Of a stretch of DNA of 64,000 nt, positions 5,157-26,416 are shown one piece after another. Position 1 is the first letter of the stretch. The number at the start of each line of letters is the position of its first letter. The position numbers and the translations under genes are program-made. This stretch comes from an uncultured bacterium (GTDB lineage: Bacteria; Bacillota_I; Bacilli_A; RFN20; CAG-826). A model generated the notes under the pieces. It saw only the letters and a program-made list of their open reading frames with translations, did no database searches and was not told where the DNA came from. The stretch is taken from contig CASEYK010000018.1 in NCBI GenBank assembly GCA_949292105.1, positions 5,134 through 69,133 on the forward strand, read 5' to 3'.

Positions 5157-5648
5157 ATGGACATTAATATTGGACAGCTCAGCGCAGATAAAATTAACGA
5201 GTTTGTAGAATTGATTGACCTCTCTAATGAACAATTTGATACTTCACATATCCGCCGCATCACTCAATGCAATGCGGTGGCAAAAGTTCAAAAATACGAT
5301 GAGATGGTCGTCATTGATTTATATGTCGATTTTAATGCTGTTGTACCATGTAGTTACACGCTTGAAGATGTCGATTATCATGGCAAGGGCGAGGAAAATC
5401 TCATCTTTAAAGATGAAGTCGATGAAGATAGCCTTTTAATCCCTGCTAATAATGTCATCGATTTAAAGCCTTTTATCATTTCATTGATTGTCGCTAGCGT
5501 TCCATTAAAAGTTGTAGGCAAAAATGCCACTTTGCCCAAAAATGGGGATGGATACCGTATTTTAACAGAAGATGAATATTTCGCTGAAAAGCATTCGAAG
5601 AAAGCGAGTTCAGTCTTCGATAAGTTAGATAACATCGATATAGATTGA
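5157..5648 (+). CDS. DUF177 (YceD/YlbN-like) protein with degenerate Cys motifs
   Basis: The IDLKPFIISLIVASVPLKVV segment matches the YceD C-terminal motif. Only one Cys remains where CxxC pairs are usual. Confidence 0.4.
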   Translation: MDINIGQLSADKINEFVELIDLSNEQFDTSHIRRITQCNAVAKVQKYDEMVVIDLYVDFNAVVPCSYTLEDVDYHGKGEENLIFKDEVDEDSLLIPANNVIDLKPFIISLIVASVPLKVVGKNATLPKNGDGYRILTEDEYFAEKHSKKASSVFDKLDNIDID

Positions 5649-19823: not shown

Positions 19824-19900
19824 ACCCTCGTAGCTCAGTTGGATAGAGCAACAGCCTTCTAAGCTGTGGGTCAGGCGTTCGAGTCGCCTCGAGGGTGCCA
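19824..19900 (+). tRNA. tRNA-Arg (anticodon UCU)
   Basis: The cloverleaf was folded by hand: acceptor ACCCTCG/CGAGGGT, D-arm GCTC-AGTTGGATA-GAGC, anticodon stem ACAGC/GCTGT with loop CTTCTAA, T-arm AGGCG-TTCGAGT-CGCCT, discriminator G and an encoded CCA. Confidence 0.9.
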
Positions 19901-19915
19901 TTGAAAATACTGAGA

Positions 19916-19940
19916 CAGTCTGTCACGCAGGCTGTTTTTA
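19916..19940 (+). terminator. terminator after tRNA-Arg
   Basis: cagtctg-tcacg-caggctg hairpin followed by ttttta. Confidence 0.5.
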
Positions 19941-19957
19941 TTATCTTAAGATAATAA
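19938..19957. repeat. 20-bp perfect palindrome TTATTATCTTAAGATAATAA
   Basis: Exact reverse-complement symmetry, located between the tRNA terminator and the promoter of the nuclease gene. Confidence 0.8.
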
Positions 19958-19977
19958 TATAGCCAAAATCAACTAAA

Positions 19978-19990
19978 TATTGTCTCACAA
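19978..19990 (+). repeat. 13-bp motif TATTGTCTCACAA, copy A; overlaps the -35 of the nuclease promoter
   Basis: Near-identical copies occur at 21694-21706 and 21736-21748. Confidence 0.7.
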
Positions 19991-20009
19991 AACATAAATG
20001 TTATATAAT
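19980..20009 (+). promoter_or_regulatory. promoter of the restriction-endonuclease-like gene
   Basis: -35 TTGTCT (19980-19985), 18-nt spacer, -10 TATAAT (20004-20009). The ATG at 20016 lies ~7 nt downstream, so the transcript would be leaderless. Confidence 0.45.
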
Positions 20010-20015
20010 ACATTT

Positions 20016-21062
20016 ATGATGGAAAAAACCACAACAGAAAGCATTATCAAATATTTTCACTACCATAAAGGCGAAGTTTTTGAAGTAGATATCCTACATA
20101 AAAGAAAGTTTTCTGATATCAACTATGATTCTTTTAGAAAATTGGTATCCAGAATTTCAAATCGTGGCGAAGAATTAACGCATTTAGGTTTTAGCCTTTA
20201 TTACATCGGAAAAGCAAATGAAATGATGCTAGATGACATTGTCTTTAATTATTTTGTTCAAAAGATTAAAGTTGAACTCAATATTTTAAATTCGCTCATT
20301 GGCTCTAAAAATATCGAAGAAGAATTCAAATCTATCGTTAATCAATATCCTAATGTTTTGGTCGTGGTACCAATTCTTTTAGCAAAAAGAGAAGCTGAAA
20401 TTAAAGTACAAGATGCTGACGGTAGTTATGTTTTTAACTTTGTTAAAATGAACTATACAGTCGACCAATATACTCTTTTCATGAGAAATAGCGGTCTATT
20501 TGATTTATTACAAAACCACATCATTAATAACCTAGTCGATTATGTTTTAGGTATTGAAGTCGGAATGGACACTAACGGAAGAAAAAATAGAACAGGTCAT
20601 GTTATGGAAGACCTAGTTGAATCCTACCTCATTAAAGCTGGTTTAGTTAAGGGCAAGACATATTTCAAAGAAATGTGTGCTTCTGATGTCGAAAAGAAGT
20701 TCCATTTAGATTTATCTAAACTAAGCAACGATGGTAAAGCAGAAAAGAGATTTGACTTTGTGTTTGTTGGTGCATTAGGGACTGTTTTCGCCTGTGAATG
20801 TAATTTCTACAGCGGAGGCGGTTCGAAACTAAACGAAACTGCTAGAAGTTACAAAACATTAACTGAAGAATCAAGAGAAATAACAGGATTCCAATTCGTT
20901 TGGTTTACAGATGGAATTGGCTGGAATAGTGCAAAGCACAATTTGGAAGAAACATTTGACGTGTTGGAAAACCTTTACAACTTGCACGATTTAGAAAATG
21001 AAGCAATTAATCAATTGATTGATCCAACGAGATATTTAAATAAACTTTTAACTAATAAATAA
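20016..21062 (+). CDS. DpnII/MboI-family type II restriction endonuclease homolog with a ~55-aa N-terminal extension and no adjacent methyltransferase
   Basis: Motifs LNILNSLIGSKNI, GIEVGMDTNGRKNRTGHVMED and CNFYSGGGSKLNETARSYK, recognised from memory as the DpnII family (Pfam PF04556 type). The ATG at 19998 used in the ORF track lies inside the promoter spacer and is rejected. Confidence 0.5.
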   Translation: MMEKTTTESIIKYFHYHKGEVFEVDILHKRKFSDINYDSFRKLVSRISNRGEELTHLGFSLYYIGKANEMMLDDIVFNYFVQKIKVELNILNSLIGSKNIEEEFKSIVNQYPNVLVVVPILLAKREAEIKVQDADGSYVFNFVKMNYTVDQYTLFMRNSGLFDLLQNHIINNLVDYVLGIEVGMDTNGRKNRTGHVMEDLVESYLIKAGLVKGKTYFKEMCASDVEKKFHLDLSKLSNDGKAEKRFDFVFVGALGTVFACECNFYSGGGSKLNETARSYKTLTEESREITGFQFVWFTDGIGWNSAKHNLEETFDVLENLYNLHDLENEAINQLIDPTRYLNKLLTNK

Positions 21063-21073
21063 CGGAGGCTTGT

Positions 21074-21673
21074 ATGGCACTTATAAAATGTCCTGAATGT
21101 GGGAAAGATGTGAGCACTGCTGCAGATGTATGTCCGCACTGTGGCTACCCCATTAAAAAAGAATCTAAGGTTAAACCTGAAGAAAAACCAAACGAGAACT
21201 ATCCAAAGCCAAAAAATACCGCTTGGGTTGAAAAATGGAAAAGCAAGGCAAAGGCTACTAGATGGAAATGGACGCTTTTGTTTCTTGGTTCCTTAGTTCT
21301 TCTTGCGGTCTTTATAATTTTATTATGTACAGATAAAGAAGTTACTTCTTATGGTACATACTCAAAAACCGTTTGGATAATTATGGTTGGTATTTCATCA
21401 TTTATTGCATTTATTATGTTTACGCTATGGCTGGTTGCTTTAATTACAATCAGAGTTCGCGCTAGACAATATGATGGTTATACAGTTCTAGTATATGTCA
21501 GCTTTAATCATTGCTTAGTAGTTGAAGATGAAGTTCAAGATTCAGGATTTGTTAATAGATTTCTTTATGGCCAACTTCCTAACAAAAAGCAAGTATGGGT
21601 TAACATATCTGCATGGGATGGATCTGTTAAAATGGGCATCGGTAAAGAAGGCGACGAAAAGAATCTAATTTAG
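21074..21673 (+). CDS. zinc-ribbon transmembrane protein (CPxCG...CPHCG, K-rich linker, 2 TM helices, ~75-aa C-terminal domain)
   Basis: GGAGG RBS and a 12-nt gap after the nuclease gene indicate translational coupling. Confidence 0.6.
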   Translation: MALIKCPECGKDVSTAADVCPHCGYPIKKESKVKPEEKPNENYPKPKNTAWVEKWKSKAKATRWKWTLLFLGSLVLLAVFIILLCTDKEVTSYGTYSKTVWIIMVGISSFIAFIMFTLWLVALITIRVRARQYDGYTVLVYVSFNHCLVVEDEVQDSGFVNRFLYGQLPNKKQVWVNISAWDGSVKMGIGKEGDEKNLI

Positions 21674-21693
21674 TAAAAATGCCAAAAACATTG

Positions 21694-21706
21694 TATTATC
21701 TCACAT
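21694..21706 (+). repeat. 13-bp motif TATTATCTCACAT, copy B
   Basis: Direct repeat of copy A, differing by 1-2 mismatches. Confidence 0.7.
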
Positions 21707-21735
21707 AAAATAATTTATTTTTGAAGAAAGATTGG

Positions 21736-21748
21736 TATTATCTCACAA
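21736..21748 (+). repeat. 13-bp motif TATTATCTCACAA, copy C
   Basis: Direct repeat located 42 bp after copy B. Confidence 0.7.
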
Positions 21749-21773
21749 ATTTAAAGACATTTCATGTAAATAA

Positions 21774-21798
21774 CCATTTCGTGCCGAAGTGGTTTTTT
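21774..21798 (+). terminator. rho-independent terminator of the nuclease/zinc-ribbon operon
   Basis: ccatttcg-tgc-cgaagtgg hairpin followed by tttttt. Confidence 0.55.
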
Positions 21799-21939
21799 AA
21801 AAACATAATGCTTGGCTCTTTTTATTACGTTGTTGCACTTATTTCAGTTAATACCTTATGTCTTTAAATTAGCCAATGGAATTACGATTGAAACCAAAAA
21901 ACTTAACCAAGTAATATTAAATTAAGTGAGGCTCTAAAT

Positions 21940-22347
21940 ATGGATGAAATAAAATGTCCTAAATGCGGAAAAGTATTAACAGATAATGAAAAAGAGAAAA
22001 AAATTTGTCAAGAATGTGGTTGTTTGTTTGAAATTATTGATTCTAAAAAAGGGAAAAAGTCTGAAGCCGTTAGCGCCATCATTAAAGATTATAGAAAAAT
22101 AAATTACAAATCTTGGATTAAGTTCTATATTTTCTTCTTATTCTTGTGGTCAATCTTAACTATCTTTGGAGTGTTACAAGGCTATGTCCACACATCAAAT
22201 CCATGGAATTGGATTATCTTGGTTGTAGGAGTGGTAGTTTACATTATTGTGTTTATCTTAATTCAATTTCAAATAAATGTTATAAGAGATATTTATATGT
22301 TAAAAATTAAAGTTGAAAAATTAGAAAATAAGAATGACAACGAATAA
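21940..22347 (+). CDS. zinc-ribbon (CPKCG...CQECG) two-TM membrane protein
   Basis: GAGG RBS. Same architecture as 21074..21673 but without the C-terminal domain. Confidence 0.55.
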   Translation: MDEIKCPKCGKVLTDNEKEKKICQECGCLFEIIDSKKGKKSEAVSAIIKDYRKINYKSWIKFYIFFLFLWSILTIFGVLQGYVHTSNPWNWIILVVGVVVYIIVFILIQFQINVIRDIYMLKIKVEKLENKNDNE

Positions 22348-22475
22348 TCATGCAAGAGTGTGAAGTTGTAGAAACAAGGAATTCTAAAGATGCTAACTAA
22401 TAAAACATTCAAATAAAAACATTAAACAAGTAACTCAAAAGTCTTTTCAAAGACCAAATTACTATTGTTAACTTA

Positions 22476-22700
22476 ATGTTGGAAATAATTTGGAAGATGA
22501 TAGCCTTGTATCCAGAAATAGGACAATATCTCCCGGCACCAGACATGGATCAAGTTTTAAGCGGGAAGACGAACAATCCTTTCTATGTTCTTTGCATTCA
22601 TATTATTGGGATACATTGTTCAAGAATCATCTTTTTAGATGATATTAAAAGAGTAAAACTAGAAAACAGCACTGACTATCAAAAAGAATTGATGGAATAA
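22476..22700 (+). CDS. hypothetical 74-aa ORF, possibly a gene remnant
   Basis: Isolated ORF in an AT-rich intergenic stretch with no recognisable motifs and a weak ribosome-binding site. Confidence 0.2.
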   Translation: MLEIIWKMIALYPEIGQYLPAPDMDQVLSGKTNNPFYVLCIHIIGIHCSRIIFLDDIKRVKLENSTDYQKELME

Positions 22701-22973
22701 ATATTATAAGTTTAATCAACAAGCATTATCAAATTTTAAAAGCTACGGAAAATAAAAAGAGCACTGAGAATTTTGAATGTTATTATAAAACTTTTAGTTA
22801 TTAATTTGACTAATTTTATTTAGAAAGCAATATATACAATAGTATTACAACGCATCAAATAAGCAGCAATTTTTTGTAGTATCAAATGTTTTTATACAAT
22901 TGCTTGGCAAATATCTGTAATCGTGAAAACATAATGCACATTTAGTTAATAAAATTAAGGATGCATAATAATG

Positions 22974-23024
22974 TTATCTCCAAAAAAATGTTATATTTCT
23001 TTAAATTTATCTCCAAAAAAATGT
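22974..23024 (+). repeat. two perfect 18-bp direct repeats TTATCTCCAAAAAAATGT (22974-22991 and 23007-23024) upstream of the ATPase gene
   Basis: Exact duplication 33 bp apart. The repeats sit inside a possible 43-codon upstream ORF (22971..23102) that has an LSPKKC repeat. Confidence 0.7.
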
Positions 23025-23082
23025 AAAATATTGTATGAAAACTTCACAAATGTTAAGATAAAAGTGATTAATGAGGCGATGT

Positions 23083-24381
23083 ATGGAAAGAAAAATATAT
23101 GATAAGCTCTTAAACTGGAAAAAATCATTACATAGAAAACCTTTAGTGTTACAAGGCGCTAGACAAGTTGGAAAAACTTATATAGTTAATCTGTTTGGGC
23201 AAAAAGAATATGAAAACTATGTTTATTGCAATTTCGAAAAAGAACCTATTTTAGAAGATTTTTTTAACGAGCTTAATCCAAATAAAATTATTAGAAATCT
23301 CAGTATTTATAAGCATAAAGAAATTATTTCAAACCATACCTTACTAATTTTTGATGAAATTCAAGCATCACCAAAAGCTTTAAATTCTCTGAAATATTTT
23401 AATGAAGAAGCCAAAGAATATCATATCATTGCTTTGGGATCTCTATTGGGTGTATCTCTAAATAGAGAAAATTCCTCTTTTCCAGTTGGACAAGTCGAGA
23501 TGATGACAATGTATCCGATGGATTTTGAAGAATTTTTAATTGCGGTTGGTAATGATACATCTAAACTGAGTTTAGAAATTAAAAATGCCTATAAAAATGA
23601 TACTGCTTTGCCTGCTGGTCTTCATGAGTTAGCTATTTCACTATACAAGAAGTATTTGTATGTTGGCGGAATGCCAGAAGCTGTAAAAGTTTTTGTTGAG
23701 ACGAACAATCCTGAAATGGTTAGAATTGTTCAACTCGCAATTCTCGATGCCTATTTTAGCGACATGAGCAAGTATAATAGAACGACTGAAATACCCAAAA
23801 CAAAATTAGTTTTTGAAAATATATCGACACAGCTTTCTAAGGAAAACAAAAAATTTCAATATAAATATTTAAAAAGCGGAGCGAGGTCATCACAGTATGC
23901 CGAAGCGATAAAGTGGGTTTGTAGTGCTGGCATTGCAAATCAATTATTTAAATTAGAAAAAGTAACTTTACCACTTGAATCAAATAAATCTAATGATGAT
24001 TTTAAATTTTATATGAGCGATGTTGGTTTATTATGTGCTAGTCAAAATATACGCATTGAAGATATTGAATTAGACCTCAATGATTCATCTTTTCGTGGTG
24101 GATTATGTGAAAACTATGTCTTCAATCAATTAACATTTGCTGGGCTCAAACCATATTACTGGACTAGTAATTTTGATGCCGAAATAGATTTTATCATTAG
24201 GTTAGGAATGGATATCATTCCCATTGAAGTTAAGTCTGGAGAAAATACTCGATCGAAGAGTTTGAATGTGTATATGAAGAGTATGAACCCGCCATACGCA
24301 ATTAGAATATCTCAAAAGAATTTTGGATTCGAAAATAATATTAAGTCCGTTCCATTGTATGCCGTTTATTGTATTAAATAA
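23083..24381 (+). CDS. COG1373-type AAA+ ATPase (AAA_14 N-domain plus DUF4143 nuclease-like C-domain)
   Basis: Walker A GARQVGKT, Walker B LLIFDEIQ and the C-terminal DFIIRLG...IPIEVKSG motif. The start is taken at ATG 23083 with an upstream GAGG. Confidence 0.7.
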   Translation: MERKIYDKLLNWKKSLHRKPLVLQGARQVGKTYIVNLFGQKEYENYVYCNFEKEPILEDFFNELNPNKIIRNLSIYKHKEIISNHTLLIFDEIQASPKALNSLKYFNEEAKEYHIIALGSLLGVSLNRENSSFPVGQVEMMTMYPMDFEEFLIAVGNDTSKLSLEIKNAYKNDTALPAGLHELAISLYKKYLYVGGMPEAVKVFVETNNPEMVRIVQLAILDAYFSDMSKYNRTTEIPKTKLVFENISTQLSKENKKFQYKYLKSGARSSQYAEAIKWVCSAGIANQLFKLEKVTLPLESNKSNDDFKFYMSDVGLLCASQNIRIEDIELDLNDSSFRGGLCENYVFNQLTFAGLKPYYWTSNFDAEIDFIIRLGMDIIPIEVKSGENTRSKSLNVYMKSMNPPYAIRISQKNFGFENNIKSVPLYAVYCIK

Positions 24382-24549
24382 CATCAGTTGCAGTTTGAAA
24401 AATAATTGACAAAATAATAAAGTGAAACGCAATTATTAAAACATAAGTTGTTTGAATAGTTAAAAAATTACAAAAATATGATAGTAAAATATTCCTTCAA
24501 AAATATAAAATATCTTATAGATATTAAAAATGGATAACGGGAGTTAGTT

Positions 24550-25440
24550 ATGAATGTTATTAGAAAAAATCTAGGCTATGCATTATTTACAGCTTTTTGT
24601 GTCTTGTTTGCGGTTTATTTTATTTATGATTTAACACAAATCAGTGATGCGTTAGATGTCGAAGGTTCAAATTTACCGATGATTTTATTGATTATCGACA
24701 TTCTTGCGTGCTTGATAATGATTTCAATATCAGCTGATGGATTATTAAGAACAAATAAAGAAGATGAAAGAAAAATATTAATTTGTTGTGTCTTTCTCGG
24801 GCTTGTTTATTCATTCGCAAATGCGTTAGGAACAATCGTGACAATGACTGAGATGCAAAATCTTTATAATAATGTGGGTATTCAAATTCATTGGCCAGCT
24901 GAAACTATCATGACATTAATATTTTTGATTTTTGGTTTTGTTGCGTTATTGTTCGGGGCGATATTGAATTATGAGAATAACCTAAAAATGAAAAAAGGAT
25001 TTATTATTGCAGGAATTGGTTGTATTTTTATCGCGCTTATCATTGCACTAGCAAACAGTGGCTCATCTCAAACAACTTTTCAAGTTATAATAGGTGTTTT
25101 TCAAATAATATTAATGATTTGTCTTGGCACTTATGTATTGTTTATCAATTGTTTTAACAATAATGCAGATGAAAAAATCAAAATATGTTCATTCTGTGGC
25201 TCCGAAGTTCAATCTGATAAACTGTACTGTGATAAATGTGGGCATAAAATGGATGCAGTCACAACAGCAGTAAAAAGCAAAAACAACAATTACTCAAATA
25301 AACAAAAGATATCCACATCTAAACTAGATCAAGAAGAAGCAGAAGACTCTTTGAGAAGGTTGAAACAAATGCTTGATGAGAAAATAATTACTGAAGAAGA
25401 ATATAATGAAAAGCGAAAGAAATATATCGATAGGCTTTAA
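24550..25440 (+). CDS. polytopic membrane protein (~6 TM) with a zinc ribbon (CSFCG...CDKCG) and a C-terminal SHOCT-like tail
   Basis: The hydrophobic N-terminal two thirds predict about six TM helices. The C-terminus reads LRRLKQMLDEKIITEEEYNEKRKKYI. Confidence 0.5.
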   Translation: MNVIRKNLGYALFTAFCVLFAVYFIYDLTQISDALDVEGSNLPMILLIIDILACLIMISISADGLLRTNKEDERKILICCVFLGLVYSFANALGTIVTMTEMQNLYNNVGIQIHWPAETIMTLIFLIFGFVALLFGAILNYENNLKMKKGFIIAGIGCIFIALIIALANSGSSQTTFQVIIGVFQIILMICLGTYVLFINCFNNNADEKIKICSFCGSEVQSDKLYCDKCGHKMDAVTTAVKSKNNNYSNKQKISTSKLDQEEAEDSLRRLKQMLDEKIITEEEYNEKRKKYIDRL

Positions 25441-25525
25441 TAATGTTTGTGAAATATTGATTAAATTATAAATAGTTGAGATTACTATAAAACTACTAAA
25501 AATCTACCAAATGCATTGATATTAT

Positions 25526-26416
25526 ATGGACAAAATTGATACTTTACTAGAAAAAGGCAACTACGAGTTAGTTCTTAAAATAACGAAAAATAGCGATGAT
25601 ATTAAATATCTTTTTTATCGTCTTGCCGCTTTTGTCGCACTTGAAAAATATGAAGACGCCCTAGCCCTCATCAATAGCAAAAAATCAATCATGGAGCAAG
25701 ATTTGCGTTTGCTCATTAAAACGCATATCAATATTTTATGTGTACTAGAAAGATTTGATGAAGCATACGATGCAGCGAAAGATTACGCTGAACTTCCATA
25801 TCATTCGCAAGAAGTGGAAGAAATTCTTAAAGAATTACCACATCGTATTAGAAATGAAGAAAAAAAAGTTTTAGGCAAAAAGAAACTGAGCGAAGAAGAA
25901 ATGCGTAAAATTCTTTTAAGCGAACAAAATGATGAAAGATTGCTCGGAATTCTTCAAAAAATCGATCGAATTGAAAAATATCTTCCCGAATTAGAGAATT
26001 TGCTTGTTGCATATCCGCATTTATCGATTCGCGTCTTTATACTTTTAACACTAGTTAAAGTTAAGGTTAATGGACCGATTAAATTTAAAAATAGTCGTGA
26101 CGAGATTCAAGAAGTGTGTCCGCAAGTCTTACATGAGCCTTTCTCGTCGACCATCGATAGAGAAATTTCCAACCGCATTAATAAATACGACGATCCGACG
26201 GTGGCAAGCGTTGCTCATCAAATATTTTCTTCTTATGTCCTCTTTGTTTATCCTGAGTATATCACAAGTGATATTGATATTTTATATCAATCTCTTATCT
26301 TACTATCTAAAAAATACCTAGCAATCAATCTTAATAATACTGAACAAGAACTGTCAAACAATCCAGCGATTAGCGAATGCATATCATCGCTTGAAAAAGC
26401 ATTAAAAAATATCTAA
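25526..26416 (+). CDS. hypothetical alpha-helical (TPR-like) protein
   Basis: 296-aa ORF with no recognisable catalytic motifs. Confidence 0.35.
   Translation: MDKIDTLLEKGNYELVLKITKNSDDIKYLFYRLAAFVALEKYEDALALINSKKSIMEQDLRLLIKTHINILCVLERFDEAYDAAKDYAELPYHSQEVEEILKELPHRIRNEEKKVLGKKKLSEEEMRKILLSEQNDERLLGILQKIDRIEKYLPELENLLVAYPHLSIRVFILLTLVKVKVNGPIKFKNSRDEIQEVCPQVLHEPFSSTIDREISNRINKYDDPTVASVAHQIFSSYVLFVYPEYITSDIDILYQSLILLSKKYLAINLNNTEQELSNNPAISECISSLEKALKNI

What the first reader, a model, noticed from the sequence alone, without database searches (positions are those of the whole stretch)
22971..24381. COG1373/DUF4143 AAA+ ATPase preceded by iterated 18-bp repeats and a possible overlapping upstream ORF
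The 436-aa protein has Walker A and B motifs and the C-terminal DFxxxxG...IPIEVKSG motif of the DUF4143 PD-(D/E)xK-like domain. This widespread but functionally uncharacterised ATPase-nuclease fusion is frequent in mobile and defense contexts. Its leader contains two perfect copies of TTATCTCCAAAAAAATGT 33 bp apart. These lie within a 43-codon ORF (22971..23102, product MLSPKKCYISLNLSPKKCKILYENF...) that has an AAGGA RBS and ends 19 nt inside the ATPase gene. This could be a translationally coupled leader peptide or an iteron-type operator. The 370-bp non-coding stretch upstream (22701-22970) is unusually long for this genome.
Basis: partly seen in the sequence, partly recalled or inferred. 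Interest (0 to 1): 0.5.

Follow-up and report, generated by a model that had tools for sequence, protein, structure and literature searches.

The report
Conserved repeat operator of PDC-S01 ATPase-nuclease
The two 18-bp repeats are real and belong to a cross-phylum array of direct repeats at the promoter of a very common, uncharacterised ATPase-nuclease gene; the array is most likely that protein's own binding site, while the overlapping small ORF is a chance by-product.

Summary
TTATCTCCAAAAAAATGT occurs twice (22974-22991 and 23007-23024), 33 bp apart. It is the longest local direct repeat in the window, and 0 of 200 simulations reach 18 nt.

The gene (best start 23083, 432 aa) is an AAA_14 + DUF4143 protein. 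It matches PADLOC candidate defence family PDC-S01, which is very abundant and unvalidated.

- **Conservation:** The same motif (TTATCTCCAAAAAA[A/G]TGTAA, 2-5 copies, period 32-33 bp) lies next to homologous genes in Bacillota, Spirochaetota, Actinomycetota and Bacteroidota. Of 49 arrays that could be evaluated, found by motif alone, 40 abut such a gene or its remnant.
- **Variants:** More distant homologs (33-42% identity; Pseudomonadota, Fusobacteriota, Bacteroidota plasmids) keep the 33-bp period and the AAAAARTGT box but carry clade-specific 5' boxes. A second subfamily has its own 23-24-bp array.
- **Position:** Orientation and motif type follow the protein tree. The arrays abut or overlap the promoter.
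- **Protein fold:** The predicted fold is an Orc1/Cdc6- and STAND-like ATPase with a winged-helix-like segment, followed by an intact PD-(D/E)xK nuclease motif.
- **uORF:** The upstream ORF is not conserved, so I reject it.

Best explanation: an iterated operator bound by the ATPase itself, giving autoregulation (inferred, confidence about 0.6). I found no description of this element in the literature I could search.

The parts
22974..22993 (+). Repeat copy 1 (distal): TTATCTCCAAAAAAATGTTA. It has a 5' box TTATCTCC and a 3' box AAAAAAATGT(A/T)A.
   Evidence: Matches the family consensus built from 150 units in 57 arrays.
23007..23026 (+). Repeat copy 2 (proximal): TTATCTCCAAAAAAATGTAA, 33 bp after copy 1. 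It ends 4 bp before the -35 hexamer.
23031..23059 (+). Predicted sigma-70-type promoter: -35 TTGTAT (23031-23036), 17-bp spacer, TG (23051-23052), -10 TAAGAT (23054-23059). Inferred transcription start near 23066.
   Evidence: This position aligns with TTGACA/TTGATT ... TATAAT in 11 homologous leaders. The promoter scan tool did not list it. No transcript data, so it is an inference.
23073..23076 (+). Shine-Dalgarno GAGG, 6 nt before ATG 23083.
   Evidence: Aligned with GGAGG in homologs.
23083..24381 (+). PDC-S01 / COG1373 ATPase-nuclease gene (432 aa). Model regions: AAA+ 1-155 (Walker A nt 23155-23178, Walker B D91-E92 nt 23353-23358); helical domain 157-252; conserved basic loop 253-268; winged-helix-like segment 269-311; PD-(D/E)xK 335-424 (D369 nt 24187-24189, E382 nt 24226-24228, K384 nt 24232-24234).
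   Evidence: Pfam, PADLOC PDC-S01 E 8.6e-164, invariant residues, AlphaFold2 model pLDDT 88 / pTM 0.88, fold matches.
22971..23102 (+). 43-codon ORF overlapping the repeats. Judged a chance ORF: a 33-bp period keeps both repeats in one frame. It is not part of the system.
22703..22973 (+). Upstream part of the leader. It is conserved only in the 98% sister strain (L001) and not in any other homologous locus. Upstream of about 22703 the two strains carry different island cargo.
19824..19900 (+). tRNA-Arg(tct) at the left border of the low-GC variable island (about 19.9-26.4 kb) that holds the ATPase gene.

Best explanation
The two repeats are a minimal, two-unit version of a conserved iterated DNA element that travels with this clade of PDC-S01 (AAA_14 + DUF4143) genes.

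Each unit of about 21 bp is bipartite. It has a clade-specific 5' box (here TTATCTCC) and a widely conserved 3' box (AAAAAA[A/G]TGTAA). Units are spaced 32-33 bp apart in head-to-tail arrays of 2-5 copies, directly next to or on top of the gene's promoter.

I propose that one protomer of the ATPase-nuclease binds each unit in a polar way, as Orc1/Cdc6 binds origin recognition boxes. I further propose that occupancy of the array controls transcription of the protein's own gene, most likely by repression, because in several clades the sites cover the core promoter.

Shown here:
- the repeats, and their conservation, period, position and co-inheritance with the gene;
- the protein's domain make-up.

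Inferred:
- that the ATPase is the binding protein;
- the sign of regulation;
- the transcription start.
For: 1. Same motif, same spacing, different neighbourhoods. Homologs at 62-75% identity carry it in unrelated contexts (L002, L004, L005, L069, L092, and Treponema rectale L086). In the alignment nothing is conserved upstream of copy 1, whereas both copies, the -35, the -10 and the RBS align.

2. Motif-first scans find the gene.
- All 3 genome hits (Bacilli, Bifidobacterium and Bacteroidales MAGs) abut an ATPase gene; for L007 this rests on a 10-residue N-terminal fragment at the contig edge.
- I judged 53 arrays from the motif scans to be real; 49 of them could be evaluated.
- Of those 49, 31 abut an intact or contig-truncated gene, 9 abut a decayed gene or remnant, and 9 abut none.
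- In the GC-rich Bifidobacterium locus the motif stays AT-rich and exact, although the protein is only 43% identical.

3. Positions the search pattern did not impose are still conserved: TT before the core and RTGTAA after it. Periods are 33 bp (63 intervals), 32 bp (27) and 31 bp (2).

4. Protein-first samples show the same thing.
- In 18 of 21 loci the best 18-nt direct repeat in the 220 bp upstream has a lag of 32, 33 or 66.
- It matches at least 15 of 18 positions in 15 of 21 loci; shuffles reach 16 of 18 in 1 of 420 trials.
- In-gene controls give 11-15 matches at scattered lags.
- Examples of variant units: Glaesserella CTTTCCTTTGAAAAAGTGT, Segatella GTCCCTCATAAAAGTGT, Collinsella ATTATTCGATGGAAAAACGTGG, Vibrio TTAATGCGCGTAAAAATGTAA.

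5. Motif type and orientation follow the protein tree. Both were therefore inherited with the gene.

6. A second subfamily (L002 gene 7726-9015 and relatives at 79-100% identity) has its own conserved array, AAATATGGGTCAGTTTT x3-4 at 23-24 bp. In L107 the last unit runs straight into the -10 box.

7. Position relative to the promoter.
- Clade A: the proximal unit ends about 2-9 bp before the -35.
- Clade B: a unit ends 6 bp before the Bacteroidota TAnnTTTG box, or 4-14 bp before TATAAT. Often a further unit supplies the GGAG of the RBS.

9. No motif copy lies downstream of the gene, and no other gene is consistently adjacent.
Against: - There is no binding, footprint or expression data. The identity of the binding protein is an inference from co-inheritance.
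- Nine evaluable arrays have no ATPase gene nearby. Three of them are related phage-like contigs, so the motif can exist, and perhaps act, without a linked gene.
- In clade A the sites lie upstream of the -35, a position also typical of activators or UP elements, so the sign of regulation is open.
- The promoter scan tool did not call the window's promoter.
- Three homologs (L077, L090, L095) have only weak or differently arranged sites.
- The metagenome scan required the 13-mer core twice, so conservation of the core in that set is partly by ascertainment.
Confidence: 0.6

Rival explanations
1. The array is more than an operator. It is an ORB-like assembly site where the ATPase-nuclease oligomerises on DNA. 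It could be a docking or standby site, a self-marker that keeps the nuclease inactive, or the same sequence the enzyme recognises in foreign DNA. Autoregulation would then be a side effect.
For: - The fold relatives are Orc1/Cdc6 and STAND NTPases, which oligomerise on DNA or on a ligand.
- Arrays expand to 4-5 units by exact 33-bp duplications (L018, L063).
- Perfect arrays persist next to decayed or deleted genes (L011, L012, L017, L019, L058, L074).
- Related phage-like contigs carry 2-3 units without the gene.
- The only alignment column that separates all TATCTCC clades from other clades is D365, which sits inside the nuclease domain (weak, a single column).
Against: - The arrays are always at the promoter and only on the 5' side. 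That is what a plain operator predicts.
- The window holds no other copy.
- Nothing here shows oligomerisation or cleavage.
Confidence: 0.2
2. The repeats are recognised by something other than the ATPase: a host factor, the RNA polymerase alpha subunit (UP-element-like A-tracts), or simply phased A-tract curvature that makes a portable strong promoter.
For: - The 3' box AAAAAARTG resembles an A-tract or UP proximal subsite (my own knowledge).
- In clade A it lies at about -43 to -51 from the inferred transcription start.
- A-tracts recur every 33 bp.
Against: - The element is kept exactly in phyla with different promoter types: Bacillota, Actinomycetota, Spirochaetota and Bacteroidota.
- It occurs in both orientations and at different positions relative to the core promoter.
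- The GC-containing 5' boxes are as conserved as the A-tract and change with the protein clade.
- A second subfamily uses an unrelated motif with a different period.
- No shared partner gene exists.
Confidence: 0.1
3. The repeats are a recombination or transposition site, marking the end of a mobile unit made of the array plus the gene.
For: - The gene has crossed phyla.
- It often lies just after tRNA genes or at island borders (L002, L004, L092/L094, L104, and tRNA-Arg 3 kb upstream in the window).
- In clade A, conservation begins exactly at copy 1.
Against: - No motif copy or inverted copy lies downstream of the gene: best scores there equal the in-gene controls.
- No recombinase or transposase is consistently adjacent.
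- In L092/L094 the island border is a tRNA fragment about 330 bp before the array, not the array itself.
Confidence: 0.05
4. The repeats encode a translated leader peptide (uORF 22971-23102, MLSPKKC...LSPKKC...) that is translationally coupled to the ATPase gene.
For: The ORF exists, with AAGGA 9 nt upstream, and overlaps the gene start by 20 nt.
Against: - An ATG before copy 1 is present only in the window and its sister strain, not in 12 other same-orientation loci. Three of those loci have stops between the copies.
- One clade has the motif inverted.
- The conserved promoter lies downstream of the uORF start.
- There is no Pfam match.
Confidence: 0.03

Closest known systems
PADLOC phage-defence candidate PDC-S01 (COG1373; Pfam AAA_14 + DUF4143)
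   Same: The window protein matches the PDC-S01 model end to end (E 8.6e-164) and both Pfam domains. The ATPase and PD-(D/E)xK motifs are intact. It lies in a variable low-GC island after a tRNA gene, next to a DpnII-type nuclease.
   Different: Published work treats PDC-S01 only as an abundant, unvalidated candidate: 'fourth most common defence across all prokaryotes' (PMC12988326; PMC13356809; bioRxiv 10.1101/2024.01.29.577857). I found no mention of a cis element, DNA-binding specificity or regulation.
Archaeal Orc1/Cdc6 and its origin recognition boxes (ORB)
   Different: Sequence identity is only 11-14%. The protein carries an extra PD-(D/E)xK nuclease domain. It is bacterial, often multi-copy, and sits in islands or plasmids. 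The sites sit on a promoter, and no replication-origin features were examined or seen.
Plasmid iterons with Rep autorepression, and DnaA boxes in the dnaA promoter
   Same: Direct repeats in front of the gene for the protein that binds them. They double as an operator, and copy number varies.
   Different: Rep proteins are not AAA+ proteins. Iterons are typically about 17-22 bp at a period of about 22 bp within an origin (my own knowledge). Here the period is 32-33 bp (23-24 bp in the second subfamily), the setting is chromosomal, and no origin is evident.
Archaeal AAA+ ATPases SSO1545 (2FNA) and PAB2304 (2QEN), Pfam Arch_ATPase
   Different: Identity is 12-16%. They have no nuclease domain. 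Their function is also unknown.
STAND/Avs-type defence NTPases with nuclease effectors
   Different: There is no repeat-type sensor domain, the protein is much smaller (432 aa), and the nuclease is C-terminal. A dedicated DNA array at the promoter is not a known Avs feature (my own knowledge).

Membership tests
PDC-S01 (PADLOC) / COG1373 | Full-length match to the family HMM | tested here: met
   PDLC04786 E 8.6e-164, residues 1-432 against model positions 3-433 of 439.
PDC-S01 (PADLOC) / COG1373 | AAA_14 ATPase domain followed by DUF4143 (PD-(D/E)xK-like) domain | tested here: met
   PF13173 97 bits (cut-off 27) and PF13635 106 bits (cut-off 28.1). Walker A, Walker B and D369/E382/K384 are invariant in 73 sequences.
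PDC-S01 (PADLOC) / COG1373 | Anti-phage activity | not testable with these tools
   The family is a candidate only and experimental validation is pending (PMC12988326).
Autoregulatory operator bound by the adjacent gene's product | Sites conserved with the gene across lineages and located at its promoter | tested here: met
Autoregulatory operator bound by the adjacent gene's product | Direct binding by the gene product, and an effect on transcription | not testable with these tools
   Needs EMSA or footprinting and reporter assays.
Plasmid-type iterons (replication origin) | Adjacent Rep initiator gene and origin features (AT-rich unwinding element, DnaA boxes), on a replicon | tested here: not met
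   No Rep gene. The locus is a chromosomal island between uvrC/tRNA-Arg and tig. Origin activity itself is not testable here.
Orc1/Cdc6 with ORB elements | Orthology to Orc1/Cdc6 | tested here: not met
   Fold-level similarity only, at 11-14% identity. No PDB sequence match at E <= 0.01.
Orc1/Cdc6 with ORB elements | Iterated polar binding sites next to the initiator gene | tested here: met
   Head-to-tail arrays of 2-5 units next to the gene. This is a resemblance in how it works, not membership.
Translated leader peptide / uORF | ORF with a start codon conserved in homologous leaders | tested here: not met
   Only 2 of 14 same-orientation loci (the window and its sister strain) have an ATG before copy 1. 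The motif is inverted in another clade.
Known cis-regulatory RNA (Rfam) | Match to a covariance model, or a stable conserved fold | tested here: not met
   No Rfam hit in 22.4-24.6 kb at gathering threshold. RNA fold z = +0.47.
Transposon or IS terminal repeats | Related repeats at both ends of the unit | tested here: not met
   No motif within 300 bp downstream of 31 genes; scores equal the in-gene controls.

The most novel reading that the evidence does not exclude
COG1373/PDC-S01 proteins are sequence-specific, Orc1/STAND-like ATPase-nucleases, and the recognition code of each can be read from its own promoter. Each subfamily carries an iterated copy of its cognate site, with a variable 5' box and a conserved 3' box at a 32-33-bp or 23-24-bp period. 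The array serves as the platform on which the protein assembles, rather than as a simple operator. The same site in foreign DNA, such as the arrays seen in phage-like contigs, would be either a target or a decoy.
Probability: 0.2. Interest if true: 0.85.

Novelty: new variant of a known kind. Interest (0 to 1): 0.62.

Why it matters
PDC-S01 / COG1373 is among the most abundant unexplained gene families in prokaryotes. One survey ranks it the fourth most common 'defence' system, and another finds it the most frequent single locus in rumen genomes. Here it has 1,682 clusters at 50% identity with E <= 1e-30.

Nothing is known about what these proteins bind or how they are controlled. A precisely defined DNA element that travels with the gene across at least six phyla, and that changes with the protein clade, gives a concrete ligand to test. 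Possible experiments include binding, footprinting, structures on a 2-4-unit array, box swaps between clades, and reporter assays.

It also gives a way to predict specificity from sequence alone. In addition, it warns annotators that small ORFs over such arrays are artefacts of a period divisible by three.

Tried and rejected
- **uORF / leader peptide:** rejected. It is not conserved.
- **Structured RNA or ssDNA:** no Rfam hit. Folding is no better than shuffles for RNA (z +0.47) or DNA (z +0.43).
- **Transposon ends:** no motif downstream of the genes.
- **Exact-sequence look-up of the window protein:** not on record. The sister strain was reached through P0001.
- **PDB sequence search:** no relative. 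NCBIfam: no family.
- **Exact two-copy scan of viral contigs:** 0 hits. The relaxed scan gave 2 phage-like contigs without the gene.
- **Promoter scan tool:** gave no more hits than shuffles and missed the promoter later inferred by alignment.
- **Unrelated hits:** twelve metagenome loci share the 13-mer core by chance, as coding repeats, palindromes or other periods: L010, L014, L016, L022, L023, L025/L050, L062, L064, L068, L073, L075.
- **Specificity-determining residues:** the search gave a single candidate column (D365), too weak to build on.
- **L017 versus L070:** the array was kept where the gene is replaced by about 380 bp of unrelated sequence. This does not decide between deletion and insertion.
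- **Literature:** searches for DUF4143, COG1373, PDC-S01 and the motif itself found no description of the element. The library is incomplete, so this is absence within that library only.
Full report
**1. What is in the window**

The sequence at 22974-22991 and 23007-23024 is twice TTATCTCCAAAAAAATGT, 33 bp start to start. No third copy with up to 3 mismatches exists in the 64 kb. It is the longest exact local direct repeat in the window. In 200 first-order Markov simulations of the window none reached 18 nt; the maximum was 17.

The downstream ORF is listed from ATG 23071 (436 aa). ATG 23083 is the better start: it has GAGG 6 nt upstream, and every homolog begins MxRKIY.

The 432-aa product matches Pfam AAA_14 and DUF4143 above threshold. 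It also matches the PADLOC model PDC-S01 over its whole length (E 8.6e-164). In a 73-sequence alignment (40-75% identity to the window protein) several motifs are invariant: Walker A (G25, G30, K31), Walker B (D91, E92) and the nuclease motif D369...E382-x-K384.

The 43-codon ORF 22971-23102 exists.

The gene lies in a low-GC stretch of about 19.9-26.4 kb. On one side are rluD-like, RNase H, mutS2, uvrC and tRNA-Arg(tct). On the other are tig, lon and engB. The stretch also holds a DpnII-family nuclease and small zinc-ribbon or SHOCT membrane proteins.

**2. The repeats are conserved far beyond related strains**

The 98%-identical sister strain (L001) has both copies unchanged. Its sequence upstream of about window 22703 is different island cargo.

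Homologs at 75% identity in unrelated neighbourhoods (L002, L004) have the same 17-mer twice, again 33 bp apart.

An exact two-copy scan of one genome per species returned three loci, from a Bacilli MAG, a Bifidobacterium MAG and a Bacteroidales MAG.
- Each lies next to a homologous ATPase gene. For the Bacteroidales contig only a 10-residue N-terminal fragment at the contig edge is visible.
- In the GC-rich Bifidobacterium locus the motif remains AT-rich and exact, although the protein is 43% identical.
- The Bacteroidales contig has five units.

A relaxed scan of metagenome contigs (the 13-mer core twice, gap 12-30) gave 69 loci.
- After removing redundancy and unrelated chance hits, and adding the window and the homolog loci fetched earlier, 57 arrays remain, with 150 units. 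Periods are 33 bp (63 intervals), 32 bp (27), 31 bp (2) and one of 64 bp. Copy numbers are 2 (35 arrays), 3 (12), 4 (6) and 5 (4).
- Positions that the search pattern did not impose are conserved: TT before the core and [A/G]TGTAA after it. The unit is therefore TTATCTCCAAAAAA[A/G]TGTAA.
- I classified the 53 arrays that came from the motif scans by hand. Intact or contig-truncated ATPase gene: 31. Decayed gene or N-terminal remnant: 9. No such gene: 9. Too close to a contig end to judge: 4.

**3. Protein-first samples give the same picture and show variants**

I collected 21 loci by protein similarity only, from viral contigs, plasmids and look-ups of database proteins. In 18 of them the best 18-nt direct repeat in the 220 bp upstream of the start codon has a lag of 32, 33 or 66 bp. 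Fifteen reach at least 15 of 18 matches. Shuffled upstream regions reach 16 of 18 in 1 of 420 trials, and in-gene controls give 11-15 matches at scattered lags.

Homologs at 33-42% identity keep the period and the 3' box but have other 5' boxes:

| Source | Unit | Copies |
|---|---|---|
| IMG/VR contigs | TTATTCGCTTGAAAAAATGTA | x4 |
| Glaesserella | CTTTCCTTTGAAAAAGTGT | x3 |
| Segatella copri | GTCCCTCATAAAAGTGT | x3 |
| Collinsella | ATTATTCGATGGAAAAACGTGG | x3 |
| Vibrio | TTAATGCGCGTAAAAATGTAA | x3 |
| Phocaeicola | AAGTGCGGAAAAATGTA | x2, at 66 bp |

Three loci (L077, L090, L095) have only weak or differently arranged sites.

When the loci are ordered by a protein tree, motif type and orientation follow the clades.
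- The window clade (61-100% identity) has the motif on the gene's strand, at 33 bp.
- A 43-46% clade has it on the opposite strand, mostly at 32 bp.
- The remaining clades have forward units with their own boxes.

A different COG1373 subfamily has its own conserved array. It comprises the second gene in L002 and relatives at 79-100% identity. The unit is AAATATGGGTCAGTTTT, 3-4 copies at 23-24 bp. A third paralog type shows AAATCTAT..AGT units. Iterated, subfamily-specific direct repeats in front of the gene therefore look like a general property of this family.

**4. Position relative to the promoter**

In 12 same-orientation leaders nothing aligns upstream of copy 1. From copy 1 onward the two units, a -35 hexamer about 2-9 bp after unit 2, a -10 hexamer 16-18 bp later, the RBS and the start codon all align. 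In the window these are TTGTAT (23031-23036) and TG-n-TAAGAT (23051-23059).

The start of the uORF would then lie upstream of the transcript (inference; no transcript data).

In the inverted clade a unit ends 6 bp before a Bacteroidota-type TAnnTTTG box, or 4-14 bp before TATAAT. In many loci a further unit lies between that box and the start codon, and its CTCC, read on the gene strand, provides GGAG at RBS distance.

In L107, from the second subfamily, the last unit runs straight into the -10 box.

No motif copy is found in the 300 bp downstream of the genes.

**5. The protein**

The AlphaFold2 model is confident (mean pLDDT 88, pTM 0.88). From its secondary structure and the fold matches I read the following regions:
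- an AAA+ domain (1-155), with two helices between strands 2 and 3;
- a helical domain (157-252);
- a highly conserved but low-confidence basic loop (253-268);
- a winged-helix-like segment (269-311);
- the PD-(D/E)xK domain (335-424).

Sequence identity to all of these is 8-16%. This is a resemblance of fold, not membership.

**6. Interpretation**

The comparative facts are these:
- The element is inherited with the gene across at least six phyla: Bacillota, Spirochaetota, Actinomycetota, Bacteroidota, Fusobacteriota and Pseudomonadota.
- In the Bifidobacterium locus it stays exact and AT-rich although the protein is only 43% identical and the genome is GC-rich.
- It changes its 5' box with the protein clade.
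- It sits at the promoter in either orientation.
- It has no other constant neighbour.

The simplest account is that the ATPase-nuclease itself binds each unit, one protomer per unit of about 21 bp. This would be polar and possibly bipartite, as Orc1 is on ORB. The array would then act as the gene's operator. Because units cover core promoter elements in several clades, repression is the more likely sign. In the window clade the units lie just upstream of the -35, so activation cannot be excluded.

Binding, the sign of regulation and the transcription start are all inferences.

Rivals that remain possible:
- The array is a platform for assembly or a self-marker, or the same site is used in trans. 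Orphan arrays next to dead genes and in three related phage-like contigs hint at this.
- Another factor, or DNA curvature, is responsible.

The leader-peptide idea is rejected, as are a structured RNA and transposon ends.

**7. Novelty**

The gene family is known but only as an abundant, unvalidated defence candidate. The PD-(D/E)xK survey lists DUF4143 with function 'unknown'.

Full-text searches for DUF4143, COG1373, PDC-S01 and the motif found no description of a cis element or DNA specificity. The searched library is incomplete.

I rate this a new variant of a known kind: an iterated operator or initiator-type site for an AAA+ protein, found here on a nuclease-bearing candidate defence protein. 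The family is large: 1,682 clusters at 50% identity at E <= 1e-30 and 12,959 at E <= 0.001.

**8. Caveats**

- The metagenome set was selected by the core 13-mer, so only the flanking positions, the period, the neighbours and the protein-first sets are independent evidence.
- Several protein-first loci are related to each other.
- Taxon names come from record titles.
- The classification of array neighbours was partly by hand.

Noticed in passing
L038; L052 (= L110); L111 (array at oriented position about 8195): Three related phage-like contigs (two are in IMG/VR, and one has a terminase-like ORF) carry 2-3 units of TTATCTCCAAAAAAGTGT at 33/66 bp in an intergenic region. The units lie upstream, in inverted orientation, of an operon starting with a RusA-like ORF. 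No PDC-S01 gene is on the contig. This could be a decoy, a target or a borrowed operator.
   Followed up: partly
L076 2136-2215: The same 17-mer, TATCTCCAAAAAAGTGT, occurs four times at a 21-bp period, between a CHC2 primase-like ORF and another ORF. It looks like a plasmid or phage iteron set. The relation to the 33-bp arrays is unknown.
   Followed up: no
L002 7560-7700; L104 and L107 upstream of position 601: A second COG1373 subfamily ('GPKWCGKT' Walker A) has its own conserved array, AAATATGGGTCAGTTTT, 3-4 copies at 23-24 bp. In L107 it abuts the -10 box.
   Followed up: partly
L044 1711-1870; L006 about 5330-5480 (minus strand): L044 has two TATCTCC units followed by a different array, TTTCAAATCTATAAAGTAAA x3, in front of a distant paralog. 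The second Bifidobacterium paralog has GCAAAATCTATGGAGTAG x4-5. Its annotated TTG start probably lies too far upstream.
   Followed up: no
window 21693-21705 and 21735-21747: A 13-nt exact direct repeat, GTATTATCTCACA, with copies 42 bp apart. It lies in the intergenic region between two zinc-ribbon membrane protein genes and is the second longest local repeat in the window.
   Followed up: no
window 19998-21062: A DpnII-family restriction endonuclease gene (Pfam E 3e-92) lies directly after tRNA-Arg(tct) with no methyltransferase gene beside it. The upstream neighbours are uvrC and mutS2.
   Followed up: no
window about 19900-26400, compared with L001: This is a low-GC variable island between tRNA-Arg and tig. 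The 98% sister strain keeps the ATPase, its leader and the downstream genes, but carries different cargo (NADAR and others) upstream of window position about 22703. ORF 22476-22700 looks like a C-terminal fragment of the L001 119-aa gene.
   Followed up: partly
L002 5334-5417; L004 5467-5551; L104 309-384; L092/L094 about 2150-2210: tRNA genes (Leu, Leu, Trp) lie 0.13-0.46 kb upstream of the arrays. In L092/L094 the segment shared between two different contexts starts exactly at a tRNA 3' fragment. This suggests the gene often rides at the end of tRNA-integrating islands.
   Followed up: partly
L011, L012, L018, L019, L047, L056, L058, L060, L074: Many array-adjacent ATPase genes are decayed (internal deletions, N-terminal loss, or only about 18 codons left) while the arrays are still near-perfect. 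In L017 the array is kept but the gene is replaced by about 380 bp of unrelated sequence.
   Followed up: partly
window 22703-22732 (minus strand): A near-consensus sigma-70-like site (TTGATA-18-TATAAT, 11 of 12) points away from the ATPase gene at the far end of the leader. No obvious gene lies downstream of it.
   Followed up: no
window protein residue 365 (nt 24175-24177): D365, four residues before catalytic D369, is the only alignment column that is constant in all three TATCTCC-type clades and never D in 15 homologs with other 5' boxes. It is a weak hint that the nuclease domain takes part in site reading.
   Followed up: no
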